The notes beneath the pieces were generated by a model. That model had not been told where the DNA came from, did no database searches, and was given only the letters and a program-made list of their open reading frames with translations. A program made the translations under genes and the position numbers. Positions 12,892 through 58,597 of a stretch of DNA of 64,000 nt are shown here, one piece after another. The first letter of the stretch is position 1; each line of letters starts with the position of its first letter. This DNA comes from an uncultured Planctomycetia bacterium (GTDB lineage: Bacteria; Omnitrophota; Gorgyraeia; 1-14-0-20-64-10). The stretch covers positions 133,655 through 197,654 of the forward strand of contig CAZQXN010000001.1 of the NCBI GenBank assembly GCA_964597545.1, read 5' to 3'.

Positions 12892-12951
12892 CCTTTCTGA
12901 AAAGACAGACTGGCCAATTCTCTCAATTTGCTCTAAGATGGATACTCTTCC

Positions 12952-17375: not shown

Positions 17376-17440
17376 AAAACCTGCTGGAAAGACCAATCCC
17401 TCGTTCGTCTTTGCAATCACCTGATAAGGAGAGCCAATTC

Positions 17441-20400: not shown

Positions 20401-20680
20401 CGGCCGCCCACACATTGTGGATGCCATCAAGAACGGGGAGATTCAATTGGTGGTCAATACCCCCAGCGGCAAGGCAGCCCAAGAGGATGATTCCTACATC
20501 CGCAAGGCCGCCATCAAGTACAAGATCCCTTACATTACGACCCCGGCCGCGGCACTGGCTACCGCCAAAGGGATTGCCGCCCGGAGCAAGGGAGAGGCTG
20601 GGGCGAAATCGCTACAGCGCTATCACCGTGACATCGCCGGAGCCGGGAGCAAGTGCCCGCCCGCTACCGTGGATGCGTAG
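17441..20680 (+). CDS. carB: Carbamoyl-phosphate synthase large subunit (paralog 1, standalone)
   Basis: [37 protein letters not shown] is the canonical CarB N-terminus. Two ATP-grasp halves plus an MGS-like C-terminus. AAGGAG SD sits 7 nt before the ATG at 17441. The TTG at 17411 is rejected. Confidence 0.9.
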   Translation: MPKRQDINKVMIIGSGPIVIGQACEFDYSGTQACKALRSLGYKIVLVNSNPATIMTDPGMADATYIEPLNTRALEEVLAAERPDGLLPNLGGQTGLNLSFELAKSGILKQHGTQVIGVNIDAIERGEDRTAFKETMNRLGIEMPKSEAVNNVEDAERVAEILGYPVVVRPAYTMGGTGGGLAYNTEELRTVASRGLSASRANQVLIEESVLGWEELELEVVRDSKNQMITVCFIENVDAMGVHTGDSYCTAPMLTIDPALQKRLQKHSYDIVEAIGVIGGTNIQFAHDPKTGRVVVIEINPRTSRSSALASKATGFPIAFVSSLLAGGLTMDEIPYWRDGTLEKYTPSGEYVVVKFARWAFEKFRGIEDKLGTQMRAVGEAMSIGKNYKEALQKSIRSLEIKRYGLGFAKDFHQKSLDELFALLATPTSERQFLMYEALRKGADVQKLYALTAIKPWFIEQMKALVELEMELIKHRGALPPDDLLKQAKQDGFADKYLAQILNTKEEEIRNRRKALGVVEAWEPVPVSGVENAAYYYSTYNAPDRVAVSKRKKIMVLGGGPNRIGQGIEFDYCCVHAAFSIRDAGYESIMVNCNPETVSTDYDTSDKLYFEPLTVEDVLSIYEKEKPEGVIVQFGGQTPLNIAQELAEAGVKVLGTSPATIDLAEDRDRFRQMMRKLNIPQPESGMASNLEEALETAKTIGYPLMVRPSYVLGGRAMEVVEDEEMLKEYVQAAVDVSPERPILIDRFLENAIEAEADALSDGTDAFVPAVMEHIELAGVHSGDSACVIPPVSIPQQHLDIIRDYTRKIAIELGVVGLMNIQYAIANDTVYVLEANPRASRTVPLVSKVCNVPMARLATQLILGQKLSDLKLTHSKIFHFGVKEAVFPFNMFPETDPLLGPEMRSTGEVLGMADSFGLAFFKAQEATQLILPLKGAVLFTIAEKNKPQVVKSARIFSELGFSIRATEGTQQFLTKHGIASELILKIGHGRPHIVDAIKNGEIQLVVNTPSGKAAQEDDSYIRKAAIKYKIPYITTPAAALATAKGIAARSKGEAGAKSLQRYHRDIAGAGSKCPPATVDA

Positions 20681-38005: not shown

Positions 38006-38984
38006 CCATCCGAGCTACCCCCTCCTCCAACCCAACACAGGCAGACCACCCGGTCGCGGCTTTGAGCTTCCCTGTATCGATGGTGAAATCCCCTGTCTCG
38101 ATCTGCTCGTAATCTTTGGGCCAGGGGGTATGGATGATTTTGCCCGAGCCCACCGCCTTGACCACCGCTTCCACCATCTCCCGGAAGGTGCGGGATTGGC
38201 CGTGACCGCAGTTTACAACCTCCCCGGTCGTCTGATCAGAGGCCAGGGCAGCCAAGATAGCGTCGGCAAGGTCGGTCGCATAGAGGTAATCCCTGCGCTG
38301 ACTGCCGTCACCAAAGATTGTAATCTCCTTGTCCTCCATGGCGCAGCGCATGAACCACCCGGGCAGGGAGTACTTGTTGTGTTTGATCTGCTGGCGCTCT
38401 CCGTAGGGGTTGGTCAGCCGCAGCACAACGGTCCGGATGCCATAATCCCGATGATAAAAGAGGTGGTATTTCTCTGTGGTCAACTTGTGGATGCCATACA
38501 GGGTCAAGGGATTGGTGGGGTGCTCCTCGGTAACGGGGTTATGCAGGATCTTGCCCAGCACCATCCGGGAGCTGGCAAAAAGCACCTTCGCATCGGCATT
38601 GTATTTTCGGCAGGCCTCCAACACCACCAAGGGCCCCCGGCAGTTAACATCCAAGTCTTCAAAGGGGATCTTGCCGCTGTCGATATAGCTGATCTGTCCG
38701 GTGAGGTTGATGATGAAGTCCTGCCCGACCACCAGATCTTTTACGAGCGCCTCATCTCGGATGTCTCCTCGCACCACGCGCAGGGTGTGTTGGAATGGGG
38801 CGACATTGGCGGGGTTGCCTCCATACCGGGGATCCAGGGAGTCCAGCACTGTGATGGCGGCATTGAGCCCGGCCAGGCGCGCAATGACATTGCTGCCGAC
38901 AAAACCTAACCCCCCGAGGATCAAGAGCTTCTTGCCCCGGAAATGGTCTTGAGGAAATTGCGGGGTATCGTGCGCCGCGGTCAT
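37959..38984 (-). CDS. NAD-dependent epimerase/dehydratase (extended SDR) inserted in the pyr operon
   Basis: [16 protein letters not shown] matches the GxxGxxG motif. A YxxxK motif follows. The ATG at 38984 overlaps the carB2 TGA stop in an ATGA arrangement. The low-complexity N-terminal extension in the track is rejected. Confidence 0.6.
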
Positions 38985-41900
38985 TTGTGGGCCGCCGCCC
39001 GGCGCCGGGGCTTGCGGGGCCGGCTGCTGCTTATTTTGATCTTCTTGTGCCACTCCTGTACGGAGCAAACCTCAAACCCCTTGGAGCGCAGCGCGTAAAT
39101 CCCTGCGGCTAAGGCATCCGCTCCGGGGATCGTAGTGACACAGGGAATTCCTCGGGAAACCGCCAGGGAGCGGATCCGGGTTTCATCGACCTTGGTAGCC
39201 TTGCCGGAGGGGGTATTGATGATCAGATCCACCTTTTCATCCCTTAGGAAATCCAGCACGTGCGGCCGTCCTTCATAGATCTTCTTTACCACTTGGGTCT
39301 CCACATGGTGCCGCTTTAAGTAATCGGCAGTCCCCTGTGTCGTCACAATCTTAAAACCCATCGTCACCAACTGCCGGGTAAATCCCGCGATGAGCGGTTT
39401 ATCCTGATCTTTGACGCTCAAAAAGACCGTCCCGGATAAAGGCACCTGCTGATAAGCGGCCATCTGCGACTTGGCAAAGGCCAATCCGAAGCTGGCATCA
39501 ATGCCCATGACCTCGCCGGTGGAACGCATCTCAGGCCCTAAGATGATATCAACACCAAAGAAGCGGGAAAAAGGAAAAACCGATTCCTTAACAGCGGTAA
39601 AGGGCGGGGTAATCTCCTTTGTCGCCCCCTGCCCGGCCAAGGTATCCCCTGCCATGATCTTGGTGGCAATCTTGACCATCGGCATGCCGATGGCCTTGGC
39701 AATAAAGGGAACCGTTCGGGAAGCCCGAGGGTTGACCTCAAGAACATACACCTCGGCCCCCTTGACCGCAAACTGGATGTTCATCAGCCCCCGGACATTG
39801 AGCTCCTGGGCCAAGCGGCGGCTGGCTGCCCGAATCTCCTCCACCACCTTGGGTGCTAAGGTGTGGGGCGGCAGGGCCATCGCCGCATCTCCTGAGTGTA
39901 CACCCGCGGCTTCGACATGTTCCAAAATTCCACCTACCAGAGAAGTTTTCCCGTCTGCAATCATGTCGACATCCACCTCGACGGCATCCTCCAGGAACTT
40001 GTCCACCAAGACCGGGCGCTCCGGAGGGGCCTGGACCGCCGATGCCATGTAGGCGCGCAAATCGGTCTCGTCGTAGACAATCTCCATGGCCCGCCCACCC
40101 AACACATAGGAGGGGCGCACCAGGACCGGGTAGGTGAGCTGCTTGGCAATTTCTAGGGCCTCGCCCGGAGTCCGGGCAGTTCCGTTGGGGGGCTGCTTGA
40201 GCTTGAGGCGATGGATCATCTCGCTGAACTTCTCCCGGTCCTCGGCCCGGTCAATCTCCTCTGGGGCGGTTCCGATGATGGGGACCCCGGCTTGGCTTAA
40301 CGCCAGGGCGAGGTTGAGGGGGGTTTGACCCCCAAGCTGAACAATGACCCCGGCCGGTCGCTCAGCCTCAACAATGTTGAGGACATCCTCCAGGGTCAAC
40401 GGTTCGAAGTAGAGGTCATCAGCGGTATCGTAATCGGTGGAAACCGTTTCAGGGTTGGAGTTGACCATGATGGTGCGATAGCCGGCCTCCCTCAAGGCAA
40501 AGACTGCCCGGACACAGCAGTAGTCAAATTCAATCCCCTGTCCGATCCGGTTGGGGCCGCCGCCTAAGATCATGATCTTCTTCTGGGCTTGAGCGTCACG
40601 CGGTGTGGGGGCTGTACGCTCAGGAGTCGCTGCGCTTTCGAGGGCAGCCGCCACCGCTGGGCGCTCATAGGTCGAGTAGTAATAGGGGGTAAAAGCTGCG
40701 AACTCCGCAGCGCAGGTATCCACCATATAGAAGAAGGGCCGGATGTTGTGCTGAAGCCTCAAGGCCCGGATCTCCATCTCAGACTCACCCCAGAGAAAAC
40801 CCAGCTGCCGATCACTGAAGCCGTATTGCTTGGCCGTCCATATCAACTCCGGGGTGGGCTTGGCCCCCTGGAGCTGGCGTTCCATCTCCACAATCTGCCG
40901 AATCTCCCGGATGAACCAGGGGTCGATTTGGGTGAGCGCAGTCAACGTTTCGTCCGAAAAACCATCCAGCATGGCTTGTCGGATTCGAAAAATTCGTTCT
41001 GCATGAGGGATGCGGAGCCTCTCTTTGAGCGCCTCAGCCCCTAGCGGTGAGGACTCCTTCCCCCCTGCCCCCAACCCGAAGTGACCGGTCTCTAAGGACC
41101 GTAACCCTTTCTGCAGCGCTTCCTTAAAGGTCCTGCCAATGGCCATGGCCTCTCCAACCGACTTCATCTGGACCGTTAGGGTGGGATCCGCCGCTGGAAA
41201 CTTCTCAAAGGCAAAACGCGGAATCTTGACAACACAGTAATCCAGGGTGGGTTCAAAAGAGGCTGGGGTCTGACGCGTGATATCGTTGGGAAGCTCATCT
41301 AGGGTGTAGCCCACTGCAAGCTTGGCCGCAATCTTGGCAATGGGAAAACCGGTTGCCTTGGAGGCCAGGGCTGAGGAGCGCGAGACCCTTGGGTTCATCT
41401 CGATCACCACGCGGCGCCCGGTTGCAGGGTCCACCGCAAACTGAATGTTGGAACCCCCGGTCTCAACCCCGATCGCCCGAATGCAGGTAATGGCTTCATT
41501 GCGCATCGCCTGATATTCCTTGTCGGTCAAGGTCTGGGCCGGGGCCACGGTGATGGAGTCGCCGGTGTGCACCCCCATGGGGTCCAAGTTCTCAATCGAG
41601 CAGATGATCACGACGTTGTCGTTCTTATCCCGCATGACCTCCAACTCAAATTCTTTCCACCCCGCTACCGATTCTTCAATGAGCACTTCAGAGACCATGC
41701 TCAGGCTCAACCCCGCCTCGGTCGTGGCCTGAAACTCTTCCCAGTTGTAGGCTATGCCTCCGCCGGTTCCGCCCAAGGTGTAGGCCGGCCGGATCACCAC
41801 CGGTAAACCGATGGCTTCAGCCACTACCTTGGCCTCCTGCAGAGTGTGGGCAACACCGCTGCGAGGTACATCCAACCCGGCCTCCTGCATGGCCCGCTTA

Positions 41901-42295
41901 AAATCGTCACGATCCTCAGCCTTCTGAATGGCCTGCTGGTCGGCGCCGATCATCTCTACGTTGTAGCGCTTGAGCGCCCCACTCTGGGCTAACTGCATGG
42001 CGACATTTAAGCCGGTTTGTCCGCCCAGGGTAGGCAGCAGGGCATCCGGGCGCTCCCGAGCGATGACCTTCTCGATCGCTTCAGGGGTAATGGGTTCAAT
42101 GTAGGTTCGATCCGCAAATTCCGGATCGGTCATGATGGTGGCGGGGTTGGAGTTGACCAGAACCACCGAATAGCCCTCTTCTCTCAAAGCCTTGCAGGCT
42201 TGCGTCCCGGAATAGTCGAACTCGCAGGCTTGGGAGATGATGATCGGACCCGAGCCGATGATCAGAATCTTTTTGAGGTCAGTCCGCTTGGGAAT
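38981..42295 (-). CDS. carB: Carbamoyl-phosphate synthase large subunit (paralog 2, pyrimidine-operon copy) with non-canonical start
   Basis: Full-length CarB (...[37 protein letters not shown]...). An in-frame TAA at 42320..42322 lies 9 codons upstream of the conserved PKRTD. No ATG/GTG/TTG occurs between them. The only candidate start is ATT at 42295 with GGAGA 7 nt upstream. The track starts at an internal TTG at 42187. Confidence 0.8.
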
Positions 42296-43013
42296 GGTCT
42301 GGTCTCCGCATGGCCGGGCTTACCGGCAGATCAAACTCCAACACCGGCATGGTATGAAATTTTCCCTGGCCTGCCCGGTAGGTGGCAAAGAGGGGTGCAA
42401 AGGTCTGCCAGGCCGACTCGCTCCGGGTCAGGCGGGCCCGAGCAGTAATGATCCAATTGGTCCCTGTCTGCACAATGGCCAGTGCGATCTCCTCTGCGAA
42501 TAGCCGCTCCGGAGGCGAGCCTTCGGGCAGTGTGAGGCGCAGCTCCTTGCTGTACAGAAACCAGGGGCCGCTGGCATCGGGCGCCTGGTCAGGCTTCTCC
42601 TCTGTCTGAGTCCATCCTGCGGTGTGCAGCTTGACGCCGACCGGCAGTCGAAGCAGCAGGTGCAGTTGGGCGTCCGGCTCCTCTGACGGCTCCCACTGTT
42701 CTGGGACGCTTTCTACCACAAGCTTGACCAAAGCGACCTCTCCGGGTTCCAGCTTCCGCTCCGGCGCCTCAAAGCGCACTCGGATGGGCGATGGGGCTGT
42801 CTCAACCGTCGGAGCCGGAGAGGGTGTCTCAGCCGACATCTCTTGGGCCGGTGCCGGCTGCGTAGCCGGTCTGGCCCGCCGGGCACCAAACTCAAGGGGT
42901 TCAAGAACCGCCTCTTCCTGTGGCTCGGGCAACGGGGTCGAGGCATGCCGCAACACCACCACCGCAGCGATCACTCCCACAGTCAGCAAAATGCCGATTG
43001 CGATCTTCTTCAT
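42279..43013 (-). CDS. Hypothetical membrane-anchored Pro-rich protein between carA and carB2
   Basis: N-terminal TM ([17 protein letters not shown]), Pro/Glu-rich linker, then ~150-aa domain. No recognisable family. Confidence 0.35.
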
Positions 43014-44137
43014 TGCCTCTTGCCCTCCTGCATGAGCTTTACAAAACGGTCAAACAGATACTGGGAATCGTGCGGACCCGGGGAAGCCTCAGGGTGATAT
43101 TGAACCGAAAAAAGGGGAAGTTTTTTGTGCCGGATCCCCTCGCAGGTTTTGTCATTGAGGTTGATGTGCGTCATCTCCACATCCCTTCCGGGAATGGAGT
43201 CAGGGCGCACACAAAAACCGTGGTTCTGTGCGGTAATCTCCACTTTGCGGGTGCCCAGATCCATGACTGGGTGGTTGGCCCCGTGATGCCCGAACTTCAG
43301 CTTAAAGGTCTTACCCCCCAGGGCCAATCCCAGTACCTGGTGGCCCAGACAAATACCAAAGATCGGAATTTTACCGATGCACTCCCGCACGGTGGAGATT
43401 AAGTACGGCACCCCTTCGGGGTCACCCGGACCATTGGAGAGGAACAGCCCGTCTGGTTTGAGTGCCAAGATCTCTTGCGTTGAGGCTGTTGCCGGAGCCA
43501 CCGTCACTCGACAGCCCTTTTGGGTCATCATGCGGGGGATGTGGTCTTTCATGCCGCAGTCGATCGCCACCACGCGGGGTCTGACCTCTTTTTTGAGGTG
43601 AAAGGGGTCTGACCCCTTTGGGGTTTTCTCTGACCACTCGTAAACTTGCTGGCAGGTGACCTCCTTAACCAAATCCCGGCCCACCAGTCCAGGCAAAGCT
43701 TGGGCCTTCTGCACCAACCGCTTGGCATCGCCATCCTCTGTGGAGAGCACCCCCTTGAGAGCCCCTTTCTCTCTCAAGAGAAGGGTGAGCCTCCGGGTGT
43801 CGATCCCCTGAATGGCAACTGTCCCCTGATGGCTCAGCCACTCCTCCAAGGCCCCCTCTTGCTGCCAGTTGGAGGCAATCGGGCTTAAGGCGCGCACAGC
43901 AAATCCCTCTGCTTGTGGCTTTGCCGACTCTGTGTCGCTAGAATTGATCCCATAATTGCCGATAAGAGGATAGGTCATCACCACGATCTGCCCGCGGTAA
44001 GAAGGGTCGGTTAAGATTTCCTGGTAGCCGGTCATGGCGGTGTTAAAGATCACCTCCCCGGACACCTCGCCCGAGGCGCCAAACCCCTCGCCGCAGAAGA
44101 CGGTTCCATCCTCCAGGGCCAGCATTGTTTTCTTCAT
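43010..44137 (-). CDS. carA: Carbamoyl-phosphate synthase small subunit (glutamine amidotransferase)
   Basis: MKKTMLALEDGTVFCGEGFGASGEVSGEVIFNTAMTGYQEILTDPSY. GATase triad region. The start is taken at the ATG at 44137 by N-terminal homology. The GTG at 44161 is rejected. Confidence 0.85.
   Translation of the reverse strand: MKKTMLALEDGTVFCGEGFGASGEVSGEVIFNTAMTGYQEILTDPSYRGQIVVMTYPLIGNYGINSSDTESAKPQAEGFAVRALSPIASNWQQEGALEEWLSHQGTVAIQGIDTRRLTLLLREKGALKGVLSTEDGDAKRLVQKAQALPGLVGRDLVKEVTCQQVYEWSEKTPKGSDPFHLKKEVRPRVVAIDCGMKDHIPRMMTQKGCRVTVAPATASTQEILALKPDGLFLSNGPGDPEGVPYLISTVRECIGKIPIFGICLGHQVLGLALGGKTFKLKFGHHGANHPVMDLGTRKVEITAQNHGFCVRPDSIPGRDVEMTHINLNDKTCEGIRHKKLPLFSVQYHPEASPGPHDSQYLFDRFVKLMQEGKRQ
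43576..43619. repeat. Two copies (one diverged) of the AAAGGGGTCTGACCCCTTT palindromic element inside the carA coding region
   Basis: GGGGTCTGACCTC at 43576..43588 and the exact 19-mer at 43601..43619. Both are in frame, encoding ...PKGSDPFHLKKEVRPR... in the CarA inter-domain linker. Confidence 0.65.
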
Positions 44138-44138
44138 A

Positions 44139-44278
44139 GGGGACGGTCCATTTTGGGACACACCAGGAGCTGAGATGTCCTCTGTCGAGTAAAACCCGCT
44201 ATTGATCCAAGCATCATTCTGTCTATCCCGCCATGTTTACCAGAAACGGCCTGGTGTGTCCCAAAATGGACCGTCCCC
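44139..44278. repeat. Perfect 29-bp inverted repeat (GGGGACGGTCCATTTTGGGACACACCAGG ... reverse complement) with 82-bp spacer, abutting the carA start codon
   Basis: Arms at 44139..44167 and 44250..44278 are exact reverse complements. On the mRNA strand the distal arm ends 1 nt before the carA AUG. Confidence 0.7.
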
Positions 44279-44287
44279 TTTAGAACT

Positions 44288-45535
44288 TTAGAAGAGGGTC
44301 AGCTGTTTTTCCTTTTCCGGCGCCCCCGATTCCTTTCCCTTGAACTTGAAGATGTTAACCTCGCCATACTCCCCGTCGTAGCCGGGCAAAATCTCCACCT
44401 CCCCCTTGCGCACCCGAAGGATCCCTTCAGCCAGCTTCTGGGGAAGCTGTTTGCGCAGCTCCTCGGCCGGCAAATCGATTAGGATCTCAAACTCGGTGCC
44501 GACCCGCCCAACCAAATCCAGATATTCCTGCTGCACCCTTTTGGACTGTACCCCTACCTCGCGCGCCTCAGAGATGATCTGATCCAGCGGCACCATGCGC
44601 TTAAAGGGGATTGCCCCTTCCGGGGTCTGTCCTGCGGGGCGGTCGGCCAAAGCCTGCACCCGGTTCATGACTCCGACGGTGATCTTCTTACCGCAGGCCG
44701 GGCATCGAGTGCCCTGCCGGGCCGTCTCCTCGGGTGAAACCCGAACCTTGCAGGGGCGGTGGCCGTCAAAGTGATACTTCCCCTCTTCAGGGAAGAACTC
44801 CACCGTATACAGGAAGCGCTTGGCATCCTTGGTCTTCAAGATCTTTGCGACCTCGCGGTACTCCATCTTGCAGTCAAAGACGTTGGCCTCCCGACCGATG
44901 CGGCTGACGGAATGAGAGTCTGAATTGGAGATGAGCGTATAGCGGTCAAGGCCGCTCAAGCGCCAATTCATCTCAGGGTCTGAGGAAAGCCCGGTCTCTA
45001 AGCAGTGGATCTCGCGCGCCTGGTCTCCGAAACACTCTTCTACCGTGTCAAAGCCTGAGTAAGAGCCGAAGATGGAGAACCATGGCGTCCAGGCATGAGC
45101 AGGCACAATGAGGATTTCGCTGGAGATGTCCAAAACGAGCTTCACCATGTCCCGAGCAGAGAGGCGCAGGAGCGGCCGTCCATCTGAGTTTAAGTCACCG
45201 TAGCGGGCCAGCTGCTTGTTAGCCGCCTCGGCAATCTCTAGGCTCGGGAAGATGAGGACCGTATGGATACGCTTGTTCTTTCCGCCGACCAAGAATTGGT
45301 TGTTCACCTCGGCGGTCGGTACAAAATGCACCCCGCAGTACTCATAGAAACCACCCGGGGTGACTTTGAGTTTGGTTTTAAGCTCCAGCATCCAGAGGGG
45401 ATGCGTACAGTCTCCGGTTCCAAGCAAATGGACCCCTTTGTACCGGGCCCACTGGGCCAACAGGTCCAGATCCAGCCGGGTACTGGTGGCGCGCGAGTAC
45501 CTGGAGTGCAGGTGAAAATCGGCAACGAGTCTCAT
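44288..45535 (-). CDS. PHP-domain protein, endonuclease Q-like (TIGR00375-type)
   Basis: N-terminal DFHLHSRYSRATS...LLGTGDCTHP is the PHP metal-binding motif. C-terminal zinc-finger CPACGKKI. Confidence 0.5.
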   Translation of the reverse strand: MRLVADFHLHSRYSRATSTRLDLDLLAQWARYKGVHLLGTGDCTHPLWMLELKTKLKVTPGGFYEYCGVHFVPTAEVNNQFLVGGKNKRIHTVLIFPSLEIAEAANKQLARYGDLNSDGRPLLRLSARDMVKLVLDISSEILIVPAHAWTPWFSIFGSYSGFDTVEECFGDQAREIHCLETGLSSDPEMNWRLSGLDRYTLISNSDSHSVSRIGREANVFDCKMEYREVAKILKTKDAKRFLYTVEFFPEEGKYHFDGHRPCKVRVSPEETARQGTRCPACGKKITVGVMNRVQALADRPAGQTPEGAIPFKRMVPLDQIISEAREVGVQSKRVQQEYLDLVGRVGTEFEILIDLPAEELRKQLPQKLAEGILRVRKGEVEILPGYDGEYGEVNIFKFKGKESGAPEKEKQLTLF

Positions 45536-47923: not shown

Positions 47924-48894
47924 GGGCGCACCTGCTGGGGTGCGGGGGCATCCGCTCCGGACTCTTCCTCGGCGGTCACTCCAGCCACCAGGTACAGCAC
48001 CGCCATCCGTACCGCAATGCCGTTGGTGACCTGCTCCAAGATTACCGATTGAGGTCCGTCGGCCACATCCGGGGCGATCTCGATGCCCCGATTGACCGGT
48101 CCGGGGTGCATGACAATCAGATCCGGTTTGGCCCGAGCCAGCTTCTTCTGGGTCAATCCATAAAGCCGGGTGTACTCCCTAAAGGAGGGGATGTGGCGCT
48201 CCTTCTGCCGCTCCAGCTGCAGCCGAAGGGCCATGACCACATCGGCTTGGGCTAGGGGCTTGTCCAGATCGTAGCTGACCTTGACCCCCAAGGCTTCTAT
48301 GGTGGGGGGGACCAGGGTGGGCGGGCCGCAGACGGTGACGTCGGCGCCCAGCTTGGTCAGACCCCACAGATCTGAGCGGGCCACGCGTGAATGCAGGATA
48401 TCCCCGACGATCACCACTTTGAGCCCCTCAATCCGTCCCTTCTTTTCTTGAATGGTGAACAGATCCAACAGCCCCTGGGTGGGGTGTTCGTGGGCGCCGT
48501 CGCCGGCATTGATCACGTTGGATCGGATTGCGCGCGCCACTGAGGCCGGGACACCGCTGGCGCTGTGGCGCACCACCACCACATCCACCCGCATCGCCTC
48601 GAGATTCCGAGCGGTGTCTACGACGCTTTCTCCCTTGACCAAACTCGAGGAGGAGCCTTGCACTTGCAGGATATCGGCGGAGAGCCGCTTGGCTGCCAGC
48701 TCGAAGGAGGCCCGTGTGCGGGTAGAGGGCTCCAAGAAGCAAAGGGCTACGGTCCTGCCCCGAAGGGCCGGAACCTTCTTGATGGCCCTGCCTGAGACCT
48801 CCTTGAACGCTTTGGCCTGCTGAAGCAGGAGTGTCAGCTCCTCTTTGCTTAACTCCTCTAATCCCAGCAGGTCCTTCCGAGTCCAGCGGGTCAT
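47920..48894 (-). CDS. pyrB: Aspartate carbamoyltransferase catalytic subunit
   Basis: [22 protein letters not shown] matches the STRTR carbamoyl-phosphate-binding motif. HPxQ region. Confidence 0.85.
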
Positions 48895-49445
48895 GTCACC
48901 ACCTCCTCAATCACAACCTCGTCCAAGCTGTCTACCTCAGTCAGGCGAACCTGAACAAGCTCCTGCTTGGCGGTTGGCAAGTTCTTTCCGACGTAATCCG
49001 CCCGTATCGGCAGCTCTCGATGTCCCCGATCCACCAGCACAGCCAACTCAATCACCTCGGGCCTTCCTAAGTCGGTCAGGGCATCCATTGCCGCGCGAAT
49101 CGTCCGGCCCGTAAAGAGGACATCATCTACAATCACCACCCGGCGCCCGGTCACATCGTAGGGAATCTCAGTCCCATGCACCACAGGATTGGACCCGCTG
49201 TGGTTGAGGTCATCCCGATAGAGGGTGATGTCCAGAGTTCCCAGGGCAACGGTGCGTTCGCTGATTTGACGAAGGAGTTTGTCCAAACGCTGTGCCAGCA
49301 CTTCGCCTCGAGATCGGATGCCGATCAAACAGATGCCCTCTGAATCGTGATCCTTCTCAAGGATTTCGTGGGCAATGCGGGTGAGTACCCGCTGGATCCC
49401 ATCGGCATCCAGGGCTTGGGTTTTAGTGCGGGTCTTGGCACTCAT
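48891..49445 (-). CDS. pyrR: Bifunctional pyrimidine operon regulator / uracil phosphoribosyltransferase
   Basis: PRTase-type protein ([19 protein letters not shown]). The start is taken at the ATG at 49445. The TTG at 49457 lies inside the terminator U-tract and is rejected. Confidence 0.8.
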
Positions 49446-49454
49446 GAAAGGGCA

Positions 49455-49501
49455 CAAAAAAATGGCTCACCCCCGCCTGACTCTAGGCGCAGATGAACCA
49501 T
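49455..49501 (-). terminator. Attenuator terminator of the pyrR leader
   Basis: mRNA-sense AUGGUUCAUC...GGUGAGCCAU forms a 10-bp stem including 2 G-U pairs, followed by UUUUUUU immediately before the pyrR start. Confidence 0.5.
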
Positions 49502-52243: not shown

Positions 52244-55200
52244 ATGGGGAAATCTTTCACCAGAATCTTTACCCTTTTGCTGGCGCTAAGCCTTGCCCTG
52301 CCAAGTCCTGCTTGGGCCCTGCGCAGTCAAGAACCCATAGAGACTACTGCAGCCACTGGGCTCGAAGAGGCCCTCTCCGGCCGGAAGGAAGGGGAAGCGC
52401 ACGTTGATGGCCACCTCATAGCAAGGCGCTTCGCCGAGCTGCTCAGGGAGGGGCGGACCAACCCAGCAATTCACTCTGGCGCGCCCTCCTCAAAACCGCT
52501 TCAGCGAGACGACATTACGCGAACCGACGCCAGAGAGGTGGTTTGGGAGTTGAGCGAAAAGGCGCTTAAGGGTGCGCTCAACGAACTGTGGGAGCGAGTG
52601 CTGCGGCACTCCGCTTATTGGAGACAGTTCCGCAAAGAGATCGATGTGGGCGCGCTCGGTCCAAAATATATAGAGCAGGGAATCGTCGATCACCTGTTCT
52701 CCATCTTAAGACACCCATTGGCCAATGCCGTTGATGCCTTGGTGCGAGCGTCCTATCCGGTTTTCGAGGATGCCGAGATTGCCGTCCTATGGTCTGTGCG
52801 GGGGCAGGAAATCCGGATTCAGATTTTGGATACAGGCTCTGGAATCGCCCCGGATGCCCTTGGTGTGCTGGGTCAAGAACTCATCGAAAACGACAAGGCG
52901 GACGAACTGGGGTCTTTTGGGCGGCAGGGGCGCGGGGCGTTCATTGCTGCGCGCTTGGCTGCAGCAGAAAATTGGCAGCTCAGTTTCGCCAACCGCGATG
53001 GCACAGGGGGCGCTGTCGTATCGCTGATTATCCCCCTCACCCCCACCCTCTCCGGCCAGGAGGAAACTTGGGAATTAAAAATCCAAGCCGGTTATACCGA
53101 TGCTCAAGTGACCGTTTTAGGCGTGGGCTTTATCGGCAGCCGAATCATGCAGCGTCTTTTGGGCTCCTACGGAGCGCTGGTCCGGACGGTCAAGGGAACC
53201 ACCACGAAAGCTTCTGAAAATCTCGCCACTCGGTTCTCCGATTTCCCCGCCTACCCGAAGCTGGCTCCAATCCAAGGAGATCACCGCAATGCCGAAAGCG
53301 TTCGCCGGTTCATTGGGGACTCCAAAGTCATCCTAGATACTGCCGGTCTTGCTTGGCAACACAAATCCGGGGGCAAGCCCGCCACCTTGGAAGAGGAGCT
53401 GCTCCAGAATGCAGCCAGCGCGGCGCTGATCGGACAACTGCTGGGTTCCTATCAGCGCCTCGTCTGGACCTCCAGCAACGCGGCCGATTACATGTTGGCT
53501 CGATTGCGCACTCATGAACAAGCTGTGCTCCTGAAAGAAATCGACGAGCGCGCCCGGCGCTACGTTCAATTCTCCAAGGGCCTTCCCTCTCAAGAAGCGT
53601 GGGGTGATTTCGTCCGACAGGATTTAGCTGAGTTTCAACCGCAAACTTTTGAAAAAGGCCCTAATCAAGCGGCAGCGGTCTTTGCAAAGGCATTCAGCTA
53701 TCCTTACTCCAAGCGGCTGGGGGAGCGAATATTAGAAATTGTATCGGAGGATCCAGAGAAAGACATCTGGGTGCTCAGGATCTCAGATGTATACGGCCCA
53801 GGCCAAGGTTTAGGGAAGGAGTTCTGGCATCCGGAGCGCGAGCGGCGGAAAGCAGCCAGGCGTCCACAATGGTTCATGGCGATTTTTGAAGCGATTCGCA
53901 ACGGGCAATTTGAGCCCTGGAAAACGGGGCAGGATTTCTTTCAAAGCAAGAACGAGCAGACCATCTACAACGACTTTGTGGCCCCTGTTTATATTGATGA
54001 TGTCGTGGAGATGATCCTGCGCGCCTCTGTGTTGGAAAAAGATTCGGACACTCCAGGTTCCGCAGTCCTCCAACTAAGCGCCCCGTGGATGACCAATCAG
54101 GCGATGGCCGAAACTATTGCCCAACAGGTCGGAATCGATCTGAACATTGCTGTGGGGGATCCGATCCTTCGACAGCAGCCGCTGGCAGCAAATTCGGGCT
54201 TGGCCCTTTTGGGCATGCAGGGAGAGCTTACCTCTTTTGAGGATGGGGTGGCCCGCCATTTGGACTGGTGGCGCCAGCCTCAGGTCCCCGCCGGCCAGGA
54301 GGAGAAACGAGCGCTGGCTCGGCATCTGAGGGATTGGGTAATCCCTCGGCTGCGGGCTCAGCTCCAGGCGGAGGAACAGATCGGTGTCGGCCGTCTGCGC
54401 AGGACGATCGGCGAGATTCAAAGCGACCAACCCTTTATCCAGGGAGGGGTGGCCTATGTGCCTGCTCGCCAAGGCCGATTGATTGTCCTTGGGGATCTCC
54501 ACGGAGATCTGGTCATGTTTGAGAAGATCCTTGACCAAGTGGGGTACGACCCCGAGATCAATCCAACGCTTCCGCCCGAACTTCAAGCGCACCTGGTGAT
54601 GGCTGGGGACCTTGCGGAGGGGGGTAGGCAGAACATCAAGCTGGCCAATCGGCTGGGGGAAATCAAGCTGAAGGATCCGAATCACGTCATCTTCGCAGGG
54701 GGCAACCACGACCAGGAATTGGTTCTGTGGGATTCACCGATCATCTCGAAGTATCCTCATTTCACCTTCTTGTCCAAAGAGCTGGCTGACCTGTTGGGGC
54801 CGGAGGAGGGAATGTCGATCTACGGGGATTGGAATGGTCTTGGGCGCGCACTTCCGGTCCTGATCGCTTTCCCCAACGGGATCGTCGTTGTGCATGGAGG
54901 GGGGCCCTCTCTGGCAAATCCTCCGCCACCTGGGCTTCCAGAGCAATTCCGCACCACCTTCAGCCCCGAAGCGGGCCTGTTGGGCATTGAGAATCCCATC
55001 ATCCAGGACCAGATGTCGTTTAACTTCCTGTGGGGATCCCACCTGGCTCGTTCCATGCCTGAGGTTGATGAGGTGATCGCGCTCAGCTCTAGAACCAGCG
55101 AGCGGGGAATGCACCCCGGCTTCTGGATCTCGCGGAACAGCCATTTTGGGTTCCTGGATTCGATTGGGGGGAAGGTTTTGGTTCGGGGACACGACTCCTG

Positions 55201-58200
55201 GGCCCCTCACGATCAAGTGTTCTACGATGGGACCGTCTTAACGCTTCAGTCCACCGATTATCGCTCACCAGACCACGCCTTCCAGAGGGATCGTCAACTG
55301 ATCGGCCGCTACGCTGAGTTCGATTTAAGCCAGACCTATGACCGGATTGATCCTGAGGGGGTAGTCAAGTATCTGTCCTGGGCCTCCGGCCTGGAGGAGG
55401 ATATTGCGGCCGAGGCGGCCGCTCTTCAAGAAGAGGGTCGGCCATTCAAGTTGGACCTGCATTGGCACGGCGTCGATCCGGATGGAAGATATCAAAAGGA
55501 CGGCAATGTCTCTCTTGTCAGCATTGGGTTCGACAGAGGGCGAGCGGATGTGCGGGGTGCCGCGCAACATGTGCAGCAAGCGCTCAGGCAGGCCACGGAT
55601 CATCCAGATGTGCGCATCGTAGCCGGCGGCAGCGAGAACTATGTTGCTGTCCTGCTGCCGCGGAAGCCTTGGGGGATGGAACGTGTTGCGCGCGAAGAGC
55701 TTCCGGGTGACCTCTCAGAGTGGCTCACTGTCATTGTGGGCGATTCCCTGGGCCTGGACTTTCTCTCTCTGGAACAGCAAGAGCGGTTCCCCACAGCATC
55801 CCTCCAGATATTGGTTCAGGGAAAGGAGGCCGTCTTGCCGCCTCACGCTGAAGAGGTCGTTCTCGCCAAGAAGGGCGGCGACGGTGTGGATGCCCTGCTG
55901 ACAGATCTGCTTCGGGTAATCGAGCGGGGCGGGCAGTACCAGGAGGTGGAATCCTTTGGAGAGCAACTGCCAGGGGACTTCCAGGATAAAGCCCTTAATC
56001 CTAAAAGATTGCATCTTATCTTTGATGTCGACAGCACGTTGATGGCCTCACTGGACACGTTTGATGCGCAGCAGCACGGAAAGCAGGGGCAGGAATTTAA
56101 GGGGGAGCGGCTGGAGAATATCGCCCGTCTGGCGGAGCGCGGCGTCTTCTTCAGGTTTGGAAGCGGCAAGGCCTTAGAGGAGGTCTCCGGTGACCGAGCC
56201 GTTCCTGACTGGGATCGTCTGCTGATCCCAGTTGTAAAGGCTTTCATGGATCGCAGGATCCCTGTGCAGCAAGTGGGATACGACGGCGTTTCCGGACAGC
56301 AAAAGGTGCGGGTGCGACCCGGAACAGAAGAACTGCGCTTTAGCCGAAGAGAGCTTCCGATCAGCCCGGATCGTCAGGTTTTTACGAATCAAGAGGTGAT
56401 ACGGCTCTTCCGCTTAGGCCTCCAGGCGGTCCAAGCCAATGCCAAGCCGACTCAACCGGGAGCCGACGCCGCCGGTCAGGAGGAGATAGCACAGGTTGCA
56501 GTAGAGGCTAGAATTTTAGCAATGGATCTAGGCGGAACTAACCTTCGGATCGGTTTGGTCAATAAGCGGACAGGAGAACTGTTTCCTGGAACGTTGCGCG
56601 CGCATCCCCTCGAATTCCTTCCGGGCACATCGCATGCCTCTGGTCGGAATGCCGAGGTGATCCTCCATCAGATTCTAACAGCTGCTCAAGCCTTATTGTC
56701 AGATATAGGGTTGGATTCTTTCGCTGAGATTGGAGGTGTCGCAGTGAGTATTGCCGGCAGCCTGAGGGAAGGGGAGGGGGTTGTTCGTTTTCAAGCAAAC
56801 CTCCCCTTTTCAGGACAGAATCTTGCTGCGCTCCTATCGCACCGGTTTAATGTTCCTCCGCAAGCCATTGTTCTTTCAAATGACGTAAGGGCTGGACTTC
56901 GAGCTGAGATGCACTATGGCGCGGGTCAAGGGCGCCGGGCCGGCTCGGTCGGATATTTCTCGGTGGGAACCTCCGCCAATGGGGCTTTTTTATCCGATAA
57001 GGGAGAAATAGTTAAGTTAGACTCAATTGATTTGATCAGATCGTGGATCAGGGAAGTCTCCATGCGTGCCGGAGGAATGCACCTACCACATCGGGCAGTA
57101 GAACAGGGAATGCCCTCAGCCACTGTTGGGACAACACAACAGGTTTGGGAGCAGGCGCAGGCGAGCCATGAAACTGCCAAAAAACTTATTCGGAAAGCAG
57201 CTGAGTCGATAGGAGAGGCTCTCGTCAAGATTACGGAGGCCGTAACAAAAGAGCAGGAGTTTCTTTGGATCCTCGGTGGCGGTGTGGTTGAAGGAATGGG
57301 TGAGCCGTTTGTTGAACAAATTCGGGCTTCAGCCGATCAGGAGCTCCATGAATCCCGTCGTGGACAAAGAATTACCATTTGTCTCTCTCCGTTGGATGGC
57401 CGAGAACGAGGGCTTCGTGGTGCAGCTTTGAGCGTTGCCGCCGGGCTGGAGGAGCAGGTTTCCCAGCGGGATGCGGCCGATATTAATCTGCTTTTCCAGC
57501 ATCTGGCCAACCCGGTAGATCAGCGGCAGATGCCCGAAACGTTCGATGCGGTCGTGGTCCTTGGTAATCCGAATCCTCAGCAAAATGGGGCGGCGGCGGC
57601 CGAAGCGATCCATCAGTTTAAACCAAGCTTCGTTGTGATAACAGGCACAGCCGAAGAAACACCTCAGTTTAAGAACGTGCTGTCCCAGCACGGCATTAAG
57701 GATCTCATCGAAGATGCAGCTGCGAGGCATACGGGGGACAATGCTCGAAACAGCGCCCGACTGCTGAAACCCAAAGGGCTTCCCGATTCCCCGAACATTC
57801 TTCTGGTCTCTGACCCACTGGCGGCAACCATCGCTCTGCGATTTTTCGAGCTGCAGTTTGCAGATGAATGGGGAGGGCCGGCAAATTTCTACAGCTACAC
57901 AGCCTCGTTGCCTAGCGTAACACCGGGAACGAACCGTAGCGAATTGGGAATGCAAGTGCAAGCGGGGATCAATATTTTTAGGAGCCTTAACGACTATGCT
58001 GGCACGTTCATTTCGGATCACGAAGCAGATCGGGATCCTCAAGTGGCCGCAGCGGTGCAGCGGCTTCGTGACCAAAACTATACCGCCGGCCAGGAGGAAA
58101 GCGCACTAGCGCAGGCTTTGTCCGACCCTGAGGTGCAAGCGGGCCTGGAGGACAAGGGCTGGGCCCAAACGAAAGCGCTGGGGCCAACTGTCTTTGTTGG

Positions 58201-58597
58201 GGACCCAACCCAGCTGAGAGCGCCAATCGGGTGGCTCTTTCTGCACGCAGGACTCAATAGACCAAAGGGGCTCTCTCCCAATACGCCGGTGGTTCGGATG
58301 CGCGCGGACAGCGTCCCGGAAATGCTTGTCTTTTATGATGAGCAGAAGCTCTCCGGAAGGGATGTGTCGCTGGTCAACATGACTCTGGTTACCCCGGAGG
58401 AGGTCTGGGCCTCTTTGCCGGTTACCGATGACCCGCATGCAGTGATCGGGGCCTTGAGCGGGGCTGAGCCGAATGCCGCGGAGACCAAACTACTTGCGGT
58501 TATCTCTCGCCGGGTGGGACCGATTTTTAGCTGGAAAACCACCCGCTATACCGCCCAAGACGGGCGGACCTACCTCGTCATCCAAATCCAGGTGTAA
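52244..58597 (+). CDS. Giant (2117 aa) signal-peptide multi-domain protein: GHKL-ATPase-like / SDR epimerase / PPP-family metallophosphatase / ROK sugar kinase / DUF218 / novel conserved C-terminal domain
   Basis: Signal peptide MGKSFTRIFTLLLALSLALPSPAWA. GHKL boxes: LANAVDAL, ILDTGSGI, GSFGRQGRG. SDR: VLGVGFIGSRI, YPYSK. PPP phosphatase: LGDLHGD, AGDLAEGG, GGNHD, VVHGGG, VRGHD. ROK: ILAMDLGGTNLRIGLV, NDVRAGLRAE. DUF218: AVVVLGNPNP...HTGDNARNSARLL...ILLVSDPLAATIA. C-terminal ~155 aa are shared with ORF 60980..62608. Confidence 0.6.
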   Translation: MGKSFTRIFTLLLALSLALPSPAWALRSQEPIETTAATGLEEALSGRKEGEAHVDGHLIARRFAELLREGRTNPAIHSGAPSSKPLQRDDITRTDAREVVWELSEKALKGALNELWERVLRHSAYWRQFRKEIDVGALGPKYIEQGIVDHLFSILRHPLANAVDALVRASYPVFEDAEIAVLWSVRGQEIRIQILDTGSGIAPDALGVLGQELIENDKADELGSFGRQGRGAFIAARLAAAENWQLSFANRDGTGGAVVSLIIPLTPTLSGQEETWELKIQAGYTDAQVTVLGVGFIGSRIMQRLLGSYGALVRTVKGTTTKASENLATRFSDFPAYPKLAPIQGDHRNAESVRRFIGDSKVILDTAGLAWQHKSGGKPATLEEELLQNAASAALIGQLLGSYQRLVWTSSNAADYMLARLRTHEQAVLLKEIDERARRYVQFSKGLPSQEAWGDFVRQDLAEFQPQTFEKGPNQAAAVFAKAFSYPYSKRLGERILEIVSEDPEKDIWVLRISDVYGPGQGLGKEFWHPERERRKAARRPQWFMAIFEAIRNGQFEPWKTGQDFFQSKNEQTIYNDFVAPVYIDDVVEMILRASVLEKDSDTPGSAVLQLSAPWMTNQAMAETIAQQVGIDLNIAVGDPILRQQPLAANSGLALLGMQGELTSFEDGVARHLDWWRQPQVPAGQEEKRALARHLRDWVIPRLRAQLQAEEQIGVGRLRRTIGEIQSDQPFIQGGVAYVPARQGRLIVLGDLHGDLVMFEKILDQVGYDPEINPTLPPELQAHLVMAGDLAEGGRQNIKLANRLGEIKLKDPNHVIFAGGNHDQELVLWDSPIISKYPHFTFLSKELADLLGPEEGMSIYGDWNGLGRALPVLIAFPNGIVVVHGGGPSLANPPPPGLPEQFRTTFSPEAGLLGIENPIIQDQMSFNFLWGSHLARSMPEVDEVIALSSRTSERGMHPGFWISRNSHFGFLDSIGGKVLVRGHDSWAPHDQVFYDGTVLTLQSTDYRSPDHAFQRDRQLIGRYAEFDLSQTYDRIDPEGVVKYLSWASGLEEDIAAEAAALQEEGRPFKLDLHWHGVDPDGRYQKDGNVSLVSIGFDRGRADVRGAAQHVQQALRQATDHPDVRIVAGGSENYVAVLLPRKPWGMERVAREELPGDLSEWLTVIVGDSLGLDFLSLEQQERFPTASLQILVQGKEAVLPPHAEEVVLAKKGGDGVDALLTDLLRVIERGGQYQEVESFGEQLPGDFQDKALNPKRLHLIFDVDSTLMASLDTFDAQQHGKQGQEFKGERLENIARLAERGVFFRFGSGKALEEVSGDRAVPDWDRLLIPVVKAFMDRRIPVQQVGYDGVSGQQKVRVRPGTEELRFSRRELPISPDRQVFTNQEVIRLFRLGLQAVQANAKPTQPGADAAGQEEIAQVAVEARILAMDLGGTNLRIGLVNKRTGELFPGTLRAHPLEFLPGTSHASGRNAEVILHQILTAAQALLSDIGLDSFAEIGGVAVSIAGSLREGEGVVRFQANLPFSGQNLAALLSHRFNVPPQAIVLSNDVRAGLRAEMHYGAGQGRRAGSVGYFSVGTSANGAFLSDKGEIVKLDSIDLIRSWIREVSMRAGGMHLPHRAVEQGMPSATVGTTQQVWEQAQASHETAKKLIRKAAESIGEALVKITEAVTKEQEFLWILGGGVVEGMGEPFVEQIRASADQELHESRRGQRITICLSPLDGRERGLRGAALSVAAGLEEQVSQRDAADINLLFQHLANPVDQRQMPETFDAVVVLGNPNPQQNGAAAAEAIHQFKPSFVVITGTAEETPQFKNVLSQHGIKDLIEDAAARHTGDNARNSARLLKPKGLPDSPNILLVSDPLAATIALRFFELQFADEWGGPANFYSYTASLPSVTPGTNRSELGMQVQAGINIFRSLNDYAGTFISDHEADRDPQVAAAVQRLRDQNYTAGQEESALAQALSDPEVQAGLEDKGWAQTKALGPTVFVGDPTQLRAPIGWLFLHAGLNRPKGLSPNTPVVRMRADSVPEMLVFYDEQKLSGRDVSLVNMTLVTPEEVWASLPVTDDPHAVIGALSGAEPNAAETKLLAVISRRVGPIFSWKTTRYTAQDGRTYLVIQIQV

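What the first reader, a model, noticed from the sequence alone, without database searches (positions are those of the whole stretch)
44139..44278. Perfect 29-bp inverted repeat whose distal arm ends 1 nt before the carA AUG
Arms 44139..44167 and 44250..44278 are exact complements separated by 82 bp.

On the mRNA this predicts a 29-bp perfect helix burying the carA translation-initiation region. No canonical SD is otherwise visible.

The helix begins 9 nt after the EndoQ-like gene stop. A perfect helix of this length argues for a DNA-level element (MITE-like insertion or cruciform) rather than an evolved riboswitch. It would also be an RNase III substrate or processing site within the operon.
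Basis: seen in the sequence. Interest (0 to 1): 0.55.

Follow-up and report, generated by a model that had tools for sequence, protein, structure and literature searches.

The report
Small hairpin-forming DNA insertion before carA
A 140-base piece of probably mobile DNA with perfect inverted ends sits between two tightly linked genes of a pyrimidine-synthesis operon in an uncultured Omnitrophota bacterium; it is an ordinary kind of element, but it lands where it should block the start of carA.

Summary
Arms 44138-44167 and 44250-44279 are 30/30 complementary, 82 nt apart and unique in the window. All genes here are on the minus strand. The helix starts 8-9 nt after the stop of an endonuclease-Q-family gene and ends 0-1 nt before the carA ATG (44137).

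Six independent relatives keep the same gene order with only -4 to +6 nt between these genes (50 nt in one). That includes a relative whose EndoQ protein is 94% identical. None has the arm or loop sequence, so the 140 bp (44139-44278) is a lineage-specific insertion.

One unrelated metagenome contig ends in 25 nt identical to the arm, starting at the same boundary base. That suggests a second copy. No Rfam family matches and the element encodes no known protein.

Best reading: a MITE-like non-autonomous element, co-transcribed in the operon. Its helix (-64 kcal/mol) raises the cost of opening the carA start from about 10 to 38 kcal/mol.

Weak points are that there is no flanking target duplication, only one partial extra copy, and no partner transposase. 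An 8-nt tandem duplication abutting one end is unexplained. The effects on RNA (RNase III cutting, coupling through a loop ORF) are inferred. Interest is modest.

The parts
44139..44278 (.). 140-bp inserted element: 29-bp perfect terminal inverted repeats plus an 82-bp core
   Evidence: Repeat found. Absent from the orthologous junctions in L006, L007, L008, L009, L011, L013 and L014. The match to L004 starts exactly at 44139/44278. Element GC is 53.6% and core GC 47.6%, against 56.2% for the window.
44138..44167 (.). carA-proximal arm (the 3' arm on the mRNA). The 30th pair, A44138:T44279, may be flank rather than element.
   Evidence: L004 has T, not A, at the position equivalent to 44138.
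44250..44279 (.). EndoQ-proximal arm (the 5' arm on the mRNA)
44168..44249 (.). 82-nt core (the loop of the hairpin). No sigma-70-like promoter, no intrinsic terminator, no Rfam family.
   Evidence: The only Rfam hits are below threshold and are generic miRNA hairpins.
44278..44293 (.). Perfect tandem duplication of an 8-mer (+ strand CTTTAGAA x2; sense strand TTCTAAAG x2). It abuts the element end and contains the EndoQ stop codon.
   Evidence: it is the only 8-nt tandem duplication in the 64 kb, where about 1.3 are expected by chance anywhere in the window. Both copies lie on the same side of the element, so it is not a classical target-site duplication. Unexplained.
44288..45535 (-). Endonuclease-Q-family gene (PF27218 / TIGR00375), upstream cistron; stop TAA at 44290-44288
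43010..44137 (-). carA (glutamine-hydrolysing carbamoyl-phosphate synthase small subunit), ATG at 44137-44135
   Evidence: TIGR01368 at 503 bits over residues 5-370. The N-terminus agrees with homologues.
44134..44217 (-). 27-codon ORF (MMLGSIAGFTRQRTSQLLVCPKMDRPL*). It starts at an accessible AUG in the loop, reads through the 3' arm and stops at a UGA that overlaps the carA AUG (AUGA). It is a candidate relay for translational coupling.
   Evidence: opening cost 8.4 kcal/mol against 38.0 for the carA AUG; 22% of shuffled loops give such an ORF, so this is not statistically significant. Inference only.

Best explanation
The feature is a 140-bp non-autonomous, MITE-like insertion with 29-bp perfect terminal inverted repeats and an 82-bp non-coding core. 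It landed in the few-nucleotide spacer between an endonuclease-Q-family gene and carA. These are two translationally coupled cistrons of the pyrimidine operon (pyrR-like, pyrB, pyrC, LolA-like, 103-aa gene, EndoQ, carA, 244-aa gene, carB) of a Candidatus Omnitrophota genome.

Shown: the insertion is lineage-specific and young, since its arms are still identical. It leaves both reading frames intact.

Inferred: it is transcribed as part of the operon mRNA, where its ends form a 30-bp helix. That helix separates the EndoQ stop from the carA AUG by 150 nt of sequence and buries the SD-less carA start.

Inferred: carA expression must then depend on something that removes or opens the helix. The likeliest route is RNase III cleavage of the long perfect duplex, as with Correia elements. 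An alternative is ribosomes that start at the accessible loop AUG (44217), unwind the 3' arm and terminate on the AUGA at the carA start. The net effect is probably lowered or re-set carA translation, not a purpose-built regulator.
For: The perfect 30-bp inverted repeat is unique in the window.

The same gene order holds in all relatives. The EndoQ-carA gap is +4 in L006 and L007 (EndoQ 94% identical, CarA 89%), -4 in L009, +2 in L011, -1 in L013, +6 in L014 and +50 in L008. None contains the arm or core sequence.

L004 is an unrelated 1.2-kb metagenome contig. It ends in 25 nt identical to the arm, beginning at the same boundary G as 44139, with a different flank. The other exact 20-mer hits stop at 20 nt and are consistent with chance.

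No known RNA family matches. No predicted protein in 5.8 billion clusters matches any of the six reading frames.

Size, inverted-repeat length, lower core GC and intergenic location all fit the published description of prokaryotic MITEs: under 500 bp, terminal inverted repeats of about 4-30 bp, AT-richer than the host, copy number from 1 upward (PMC10969869).

The opening energy of the carA start is 38.0 kcal/mol with the element. It is 9.8 for the reconstructed empty site, 11.5 for a transcript lacking the 5' arm, and 6.8-23.7 in relatives.

The 22 nt immediately upstream of the carA ATG, now arm sequence, contain no SD core motif. By eye, none is visible just before the carA start in five of the six relatives' junctions; only L008 has AAGGAG. 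The organism does use SDs elsewhere in the operon, so ancestral carA translation probably relied on coupling. Re-initiation depends on a short stop-start distance (PMC4538824).
Against: No direct repeat flanks the element, although young MITEs normally keep their target-site duplication. The sense-strand flanks are ...TTCTAAA|GGGG and CCCC|TATGAAG.

Only one further, partial copy was found in more than 1 Tb of public sequence. That rests on a single 25-nt match at a contig end.

There is no other copy or degenerate arm in the 64-kb window or in about 60 kb of relatives. The one transposase in the window (IS481 family, 11070-11975) has unrelated ends.

No partner transposase or insertion-sequence family could be named.

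The rest of the source genome could not be read. The source contig is 208,633 bp, but the look-up tool could not return it.

All RNA-level consequences are predictions.
Confidence: 0.6

Rival explanations
1. It is an in-situ remnant, not a mobile family. A full-length insertion sequence or other foreign segment once inserted here and lost its interior, leaving two ends and 82 bp. Alternatively, a one-off illegitimate insertion. It no longer moves and has few or no other copies.
For: There is a single copy in 64 kb, no target-site duplication, and almost nothing in public data. The odd one-sided 8-nt tandem duplication suggests a messy, multi-step event at this site.
Against: The arms are still 100% identical and both neighbouring ORFs are intact. 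L004 carries the same terminus in another context. Internal deletion of an insertion sequence is in any case how MITEs arise, so this differs from the main reading only in copy number.
Confidence: 0.17
2. It is an invertible DNA switch (inverton). A site-specific recombinase flips the 82-bp core between the perfect repeats, turning carA/carB expression on or off.
For: Perfect inverted repeats that bracket a short segment immediately upstream of a gene are the signature used to find invertons. Recombination would keep the arms identical.
Against: No promoter-like site lies in either orientation of the core. Of the roughly 45 window ORFs scanned, none matched a serine or tyrosine recombinase family. 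The element sits inside an operon of housekeeping genes. The whole unit, arms included, is absent from relatives, which is typical of an insertion. An 82-bp segment is short for synapsis; that point is general knowledge, not tested here.
Confidence: 0.05
3. It is an evolved cis-regulatory RNA of the pyr operon. Examples would be a PyrR-type attenuator, an RNase III processing site or a thermosensor, selected to set the carA:EndoQ expression ratio.
For: The position is exact: it spans the stop-to-start spacer of an operon that also encodes a PyrR-like protein (48891-49457). The structure is very stable. One relative, L008, has a different short hairpin followed by an SD in the same spacer.
Against: It is not conserved in any relative, even at 94% protein identity. 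There is no Rfam PyrR or other family hit at E<=10. A 30/30 perfect helix with no compensatory variation or bulges is unlike evolved regulators. The same terminus occurs at an unrelated locus.
Confidence: 0.06
4. It is an assembly or sequencing artefact, such as a chimeric hairpin introduced by the assembler or by amplification.
For: The source is a metagenome-assembled contig, and the reads could not be inspected.
Against: The insertion is internal to a 208-kb contig. It returns to the exact syntenic position and leaves both ORFs intact. It resembles no adapter known to me (from memory). An independent assembly, L004, contains the same 25-mer.
Confidence: 0.03

Closest known systems
Correia repeat-enclosed elements (CREE/NEMIS) of Neisseria
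   Same: Small (104-157 bp), with about 26-bp terminal inverted repeats around a non-coding core, and often lying just 5' of genes. When co-transcribed the repeats form an mRNA hairpin that RNase III binds and cleaves, changing expression of the adjacent gene. Presence or absence differs between close strains (PMC2649163, PMC10969869).
   Different: There is no sequence similarity. CREE have a TA target duplication, more than 100 copies per genome, and IHF and promoter motifs. Here no duplication flanks the element, only 1-2 copies are known, no promoter-like site was found and no IHF consensus was seen by eye. The host phylum is Omnitrophota.
ERIC/IRU, RUP, Chunjie, QMITE and other bacterial MITEs inserted in operons
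   Same: These are non-coding palindromic units of about 100-250 bp that insert in intergenic spacers of polycistronic units and fold into long RNA hairpins. QMITE2, for example, has 23-29-bp terminal inverted repeats and a 113-145-bp core (PMC10969869).
   Different: Those families are defined by many copies and, in young copies, flanking direct repeats. Neither is shown here.
REPINs (REP doublets forming hairpins, mobilised by RAYT transposases)
   Same: Two inverted ~25-nt units separated by a spacer of tens of nt, about 100 nt in all, forming a hairpin, and with no target-site duplication (from my own knowledge of Bertels & Rainey 2011; REP background in PMC3733652).
   Different: REPINs occur in tens to hundreds of copies, with many REP singlets, and next to a RAYT gene. 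There is one copy in 64 kb here and no RAYT. The arm is not itself a REP-like palindrome.
Structured intercistronic regions that control translational coupling
   Same: A stable helix that overlaps the downstream start makes its translation depend on unwinding by upstream ribosomes (the biophysical model in PMC4538824).
   Different: In that model the helix lies within the footprint of the terminating upstream ribosome. Here the EndoQ stop is 8-9 nt before a 30-bp helix, so that ribosome could open only its first few pairs. Only the hypothetical loop ORF would read through the 3' arm.

Membership tests
Prokaryotic MITE | Short (<500 bp), with no transposase or other coding capacity | tested here: met
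   The element is 140 bp. The six-frame translations match no predicted protein, and the longest internal ORF is 27 codons.
Prokaryotic MITE | Terminal inverted repeats (~4-30 bp) | tested here: met
   Perfect arms of 29-30 bp.
Prokaryotic MITE | Flanking direct repeats (target-site duplication), expected in young copies | tested here: not met
   The flanks TTCTAAA| and |TATGAAG share no direct repeat. An 8-nt tandem duplication lies on one side only.
Prokaryotic MITE | Insertion polymorphism: occupied versus empty site in related genomes | tested here: met
   The element is absent from seven orthologous junction loci (six independent relatives), where the gap is -4 to +6 nt, or 50 nt of unrelated sequence in L008. 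The closest relative is diverged (EndoQ 94%, CarA 89% identical), so the empty site is not base-exact.
Prokaryotic MITE | Multiple copies sharing terminal repeats and core at unrelated loci | tested here: inconclusive
   One extra terminus, 25/25 nt, at the end of contig L004. Nothing else in the window, the fetched loci, plasmids, phages or viral contigs.
Prokaryotic MITE | A parent insertion sequence or transposase with matching terminal repeats | not testable with these tools
   The only transposase in the window (IS481 family, 11070-11975) has unrelated ends. No ISfinder-type library was available.
Correia element (CREE) | 26-bp Correia repeat sequence, conserved core and TA duplication | tested here: not met
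   The arm sequence is GGGGACGGTCCATTTTGGGACACACCAGG. It is not flanked by TA on both sides, and by my reading it bears no resemblance to the published CREE end and core motifs (PMC2649163).
Correia element (CREE) | RNase III cleavage of the hairpin formed by the repeats in mRNA | not testable with these tools
   The helix is 30 perfect base pairs at -64 kcal/mol. That meets the length requirement for a substrate, but there are no transcript data.
REPIN / REP-RAYT | High-copy REP units and an associated RAYT gene | tested here: not met
   There are no singlet arms in 64 kb at up to 3 mismatches or by short-word BLAST. No Y1 transposase was found among the scanned ORFs.
Inverton (invertible promoter) | A promoter within the invertible segment and a cognate recombinase; both orientations present in the population | tested here: inconclusive
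   No sigma-70-like promoter and no recombinase among the scanned window ORFs. Testing the orientation mixture needs reads.
PyrR-binding attenuator (Rfam RF00515) or any known riboswitch | A match to the family covariance model | tested here: not met
   The only hits at E<=10 are sub-threshold miRNA-hairpin models. The gathering-threshold scan of the whole window finds only three tRNAs.
Integron attC site | Imperfect palindrome with R''/R' (RYYYAAC...GTTRRRY) boxes and extrahelical bases | tested here: not met
   The termini are GGGGACGG...CCGTCCCC and the helix is perfect with no bulges.

The most novel reading that the evidence does not exclude
The insertion is tolerated in an essential operon because the element itself restores coupling. 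Either ribosomes load at the exposed loop AUG (44217), translate a 27-codon ORF through the 3' arm and terminate on the AUGA at the carA start, handing over to carA. Or the closed hairpin brings the EndoQ stop and the carA AUG within about 10 nt of each other, so that terminating ribosomes re-initiate across its base, a bacterial analogue of ribosome shunting. If general, palindromic mobile elements could insert between coupled genes without polar damage.
Probability: 0.12. Interest if true: 0.6.

Novelty: new member of a known kind. Interest (0 to 1): 0.27.

Why it matters
As a single MITE-like insertion this is routine genome biology. Two aspects give it some value.

First, small mobile palindromic elements have, to my knowledge, not been described in Candidatus Omnitrophota. 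This one provides exact ends that can be searched in that phylum's genomes.

Second, it is a natural experiment. A -64 kcal/mol perfect helix has been placed precisely between the stop and start codons of two ancestrally coupled cistrons, directly on the start of carA, which is needed for pyrimidine and arginine synthesis. How the cell still makes CarA can be tested directly. The candidates are RNase III processing, a relay ORF, or re-initiation across the hairpin base. The answer bears on how operons tolerate such insertions.

Tried and rejected
**Exact 20-mer scans.** I scanned with GGGACGGTCCATTTTGGGAC from the arm.
- Species-representative genomes gave one hit in Paenibacillus, 20 nt only, which I take as chance.
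- Metagenomes gave three contigs of one coding gene, 20 nt only, also chance, plus L004.
- Viral contigs gave one 20-nt chance hit.
- A loop 20-mer found nothing in viral contigs.

**Six-frame peptide search.** I concatenated the six-frame translations of the element and searched 5.8 billion protein clusters, hoping to catch ORFs called across other copies. Nothing scored E<=10.

**Other sequence collections.** BLAST of the element against plasmids and phages gave no meaningful hit. Short-word BLAST against the window and all fetched loci found no degenerate copies.

**Retrieving the source contig.** Only the contig length, 208,633 bp, was learned.

**Identifying L004.** Pfam found no domains on its ORFs.

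**Target-site duplication.** I looked for direct repeats of 2-9 nt under several boundary choices, including TA (IS630-type). None fits. L004's flank (GTGACT|GGGG) shares no target motif with the window's flanks.

**Readings considered and rejected.**
- Retron msr/msd: there is no reverse transcriptase downstream.
- attC site: wrong ends and a perfect helix.
- Intrinsic terminator: no U-tract.
- GTG 44161 as the carA start.
- Derivation of the arm from carA's own 5' codons: only an ATGGA/CCGTC resemblance, below significance.

**Insertion-sequence family.** A literature search for an IS family with matching ends was unproductive.

Full report
**1. The observation**

Arms 44138-44167 and 44250-44279 are 30 nt long, 100% complementary and 82 nt apart. 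The 30-mer, allowing up to 3 mismatches, occurs nowhere else in the window, against 0 expected in shuffles. No comparable inverted repeat exists in the 64 kb.

The coding strand here is the minus strand. An endonuclease-Q-family gene (PF27218 / TIGR00375) runs 45535 to 44288, with its stop TAA at 44290-44288. carA runs 44137 to 43010. On the mRNA the order is:
- stop codon
- 8-9 nt
- 5' arm
- 82-nt loop
- 3' arm
- 0-1 nt
- AUG

The sense RNA folds at -82 kcal/mol (z = -7.6). The stem alone is -64.2 kcal/mol. As single-stranded DNA the region folds at -41.5 kcal/mol (z = -9.1).

The true carA start is ATG 44137. Relatives' CarA proteins begin MKAILALEDG or similar, against MKKTMLALEDG here, and the stored public protein P0121 is the 375-aa form. 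The GTG at 44161 would add eight residues encoded by the arm and has no support.

**2. Organism and context**

The best named homologues of both genes are from Candidatus Omnitrophota/Omnitrophica MAGs.

The surrounding genes form a minus-strand pyrimidine operon with tight or overlapping junctions. In order they are:
- pyrR-like
- pyrB
- pyrC
- LolA-like
- a 103-aa gene
- EndoQ
- carA
- a 244-aa gene
- carB
- further on, an epimerase, pyrK-like, pyrD and pyrF

**3. It is an insertion**

I retrieved the orthologous region from six independent relatives, and the gene order is the same in all. The distance from the EndoQ stop to the carA start is:

| Locus | Gap (nt) |
|---|---|
| L006 and L007 (two samples of one relative; EndoQ 94% identical, CarA 89%) | +4 |
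| L009 | -4 |
| L011 | +2 |
| L013 | -1 |
| L014 | +6 |
| L008 | +50 |

These values were checked again. None of these loci contains any part of the arm or core. The window's 149-nt spacer is therefore the derived state, and the ancestral state is a translationally coupled junction.

The two arms are still identical, although the nearest relative has diverged by roughly 10% at the nucleotide level in this region. The insertion is therefore much younger than that split, or the arms are kept identical by selection or recombination.

**4. Evidence on mobility**

Exact scans with a 20-mer from the arm returned a handful of hits, about as many as chance predicts for more than 1 Tb of sequence. All of them end at 20 nt, with one exception.

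The exception is contig L004 (OBEQ010044279.1, 1,214 nt, 49% GC). It ends in 25 nt identical to the arm, starting at exactly the base that corresponds to 44139/44278 and preceded by unrelated sequence. The chance that a random 20-mer hit extends five more bases is about 0.001, so I take this as a second copy of the terminus. It also sets the element boundary at GGGG...CCCC, which gives 140 bp at 44139-44278.

Beyond that there is nothing:
- no other copy or degenerate arm in the window or the fetched loci;
- no match in plasmids or phages;
- no predicted protein matching any of the six frames.

The one transposase in the window, of the IS481 family at 11070-11975, has unrelated ends. The rest of the source genome could not be retrieved.

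**5. The missing target duplication and an odd scar**

No direct repeat flanks the element under any boundary choice.

Instead, the only perfect 8-nt tandem duplication in the whole window lies at 44278-44293. It reads TTCTAAAG TTCTAAAG on the sense strand. It overlaps the element's end by one base and includes the EndoQ stop codon. About 1.3 such duplications are expected per window anywhere, so adjacency to an element end has a chance probability of roughly 4e-4.

Both copies are on the same side, which a simple insertion does not produce. Removing one 8-mer plus 138 nt gives TAAAGCTATGAAG, which aligns with TAAGCAGATGGCG in L006. I cannot explain the duplication. Possible causes are a footprint of an earlier insertion and excision at this AT-rich site, or slippage provoked by the hairpin.

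**6. What it is not**

No Rfam family matches, and the PyrR-binding element is among those that fail to match. The only hits at E<=10 are sub-threshold miRNA-hairpin models. There is no sigma-70-like promoter and no intrinsic terminator on either strand. The ends are not attC-like. There is no reverse transcriptase downstream, which excludes a retron. No recombinase was found among the roughly 45 window ORFs scanned.

**7. Likely consequences (inferred)**

No SD core motif precedes the carA ATG in the window, and by eye none is visible in most relatives' junctions; L008 is the exception. Neighbouring genes of the operon do have clear SDs. Ancestral carA translation therefore probably depended on termination and re-initiation over a very short distance, the regime measured in PMC4538824.

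The cost of making positions -18 to +15 around the carA AUG single-stranded is:

| Context | Opening cost (kcal/mol) |
|---|---|
| Window, with the element | 38.0 |
| Reconstructed empty site | 9.8 |
| Transcript lacking the 5' arm | 11.5 |
| Relatives | 6.8-23.7 |

A ribosome terminating at the EndoQ stop, 8-9 nt before the helix, could open only the first few pairs. De novo or coupled initiation on the intact transcript should therefore be strongly depressed.

Three routes could rescue expression.

(a) RNase III could cleave the perfect 30-bp duplex. This has been shown for the hairpins formed by Correia element repeats in Neisseria mRNAs (PMC2649163, PMC10969869). Cleavage would free the 3' half of the transcript.

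(b) A relay ORF could carry ribosomes through the helix. An AUG at 44217 in the loop costs only 8.4 kcal/mol to open. It heads a 27-codon frame that runs through the 3' arm and stops at the UGA of the AUGA at the carA start. However, 22% of shuffled loops give such an ORF, so this is a possibility, not a finding.

(c) Ribosomes could re-initiate across the base of the closed hairpin, which holds the stop and the start about 10 nt apart.

None of these can be tested with sequence alone.

**8. Comparison with known elements**

The anatomy matches the published description of prokaryotic MITEs: 140 bp, 29-bp terminal inverted repeats, a non-coding core with lower GC, an intergenic position, and presence or absence differing among relatives (PMC10969869). 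In likely behaviour it is closest to Correia elements and to ERIC-type elements sitting inside operons.

It fails or leaves open two defining features, namely flanking direct repeats (not met) and multiple copies (inconclusive). I therefore file it as MITE-like, a probable new member of a known kind, and not as a member of any named family. REPINs share the absence of a target duplication, but they need high copy number and a RAYT gene, and neither is seen here.

**9. Verdict**

I put about 0.6 on a transposable MITE. Most of the rest goes to a non-mobile remnant of the same origin.

Interest is modest at 0.27. The kind of element is familiar. Its placement exactly on a coupled stop-start junction of an essential gene, together with the unexplained one-sided duplication, makes it a neat test case but not a surprise.

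Noticed in passing
window 40320, 43576, 43604, 50448, 50474; L014 3519, 3544, 6204, 6224, 6459; L011 4830: A 13-nt near-palindrome, GGGGTCTGACCCC, occurs 5 times in the window (0.09 expected; 0 of 100 shuffles reach 5). All copies lie inside coding regions (carA, carB and a TP_methylase gene), mostly in pairs 25-28 nt apart. The same pair sits at the same place in carA of a 75%-identical relative, where it encodes ..GSDP.. and ..VRP.. in a variable linker. This may be a short palindromic repeat family tolerated in-frame. It is unrelated in sequence to the 29-nt arm.
   Followed up: partly
window 44278-44293: This is the only perfect 8-nt tandem duplication in the 64 kb (sense strand TTCTAAAG x2). 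It abuts the element end and contains the EndoQ stop codon. Both copies are on one side of the element, so it is not a normal target-site duplication.
   Followed up: partly
window 11070-13027: An IS481-family transposase (11070-11975, minus strand; NF033577 at 273 bits) lies next to an HTH_38 ORF (12157-12837) and two tRNA genes (12815-12888 and 12952-13027). This is at the edge of a block of methyltransferase, glycosyltransferase and ABC-transporter genes (about 8-30 kb) that looks like a polysaccharide island.
   Followed up: partly
window 17411-20680 (+): A second full-length carB paralogue (1089 aa, all CPSase large-chain domains) sits inside the putative polysaccharide/methyltransferase island. 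It is separate from the operon's carB at 38981-42187 (minus strand), and no second carA was seen among the scanned ORFs.
   Followed up: no
L008 3648-3697: One relative (GCA_023248095.1) has a 50-nt EndoQ-carA spacer holding a different perfect hairpin, GGTGCCAGGAT-TA-ATCCTGGCACC. It is followed by an AAGGAG SD and a TTG start. This junction has therefore been remodelled independently.
   Followed up: no
L011 2069-2180: Three copies (two direct, one inverted) of the 20-mer AAGGTACCAGGTACCCTCTG fill the pyrC-to-next-gene spacer of another relative (GCA_964373805.1). This is another small repeat or palindrome in the same operon of this clade.
   Followed up: no
window 52244-58597 (+): A giant 2117-aa ORF that was not examined.
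   Followed up: no
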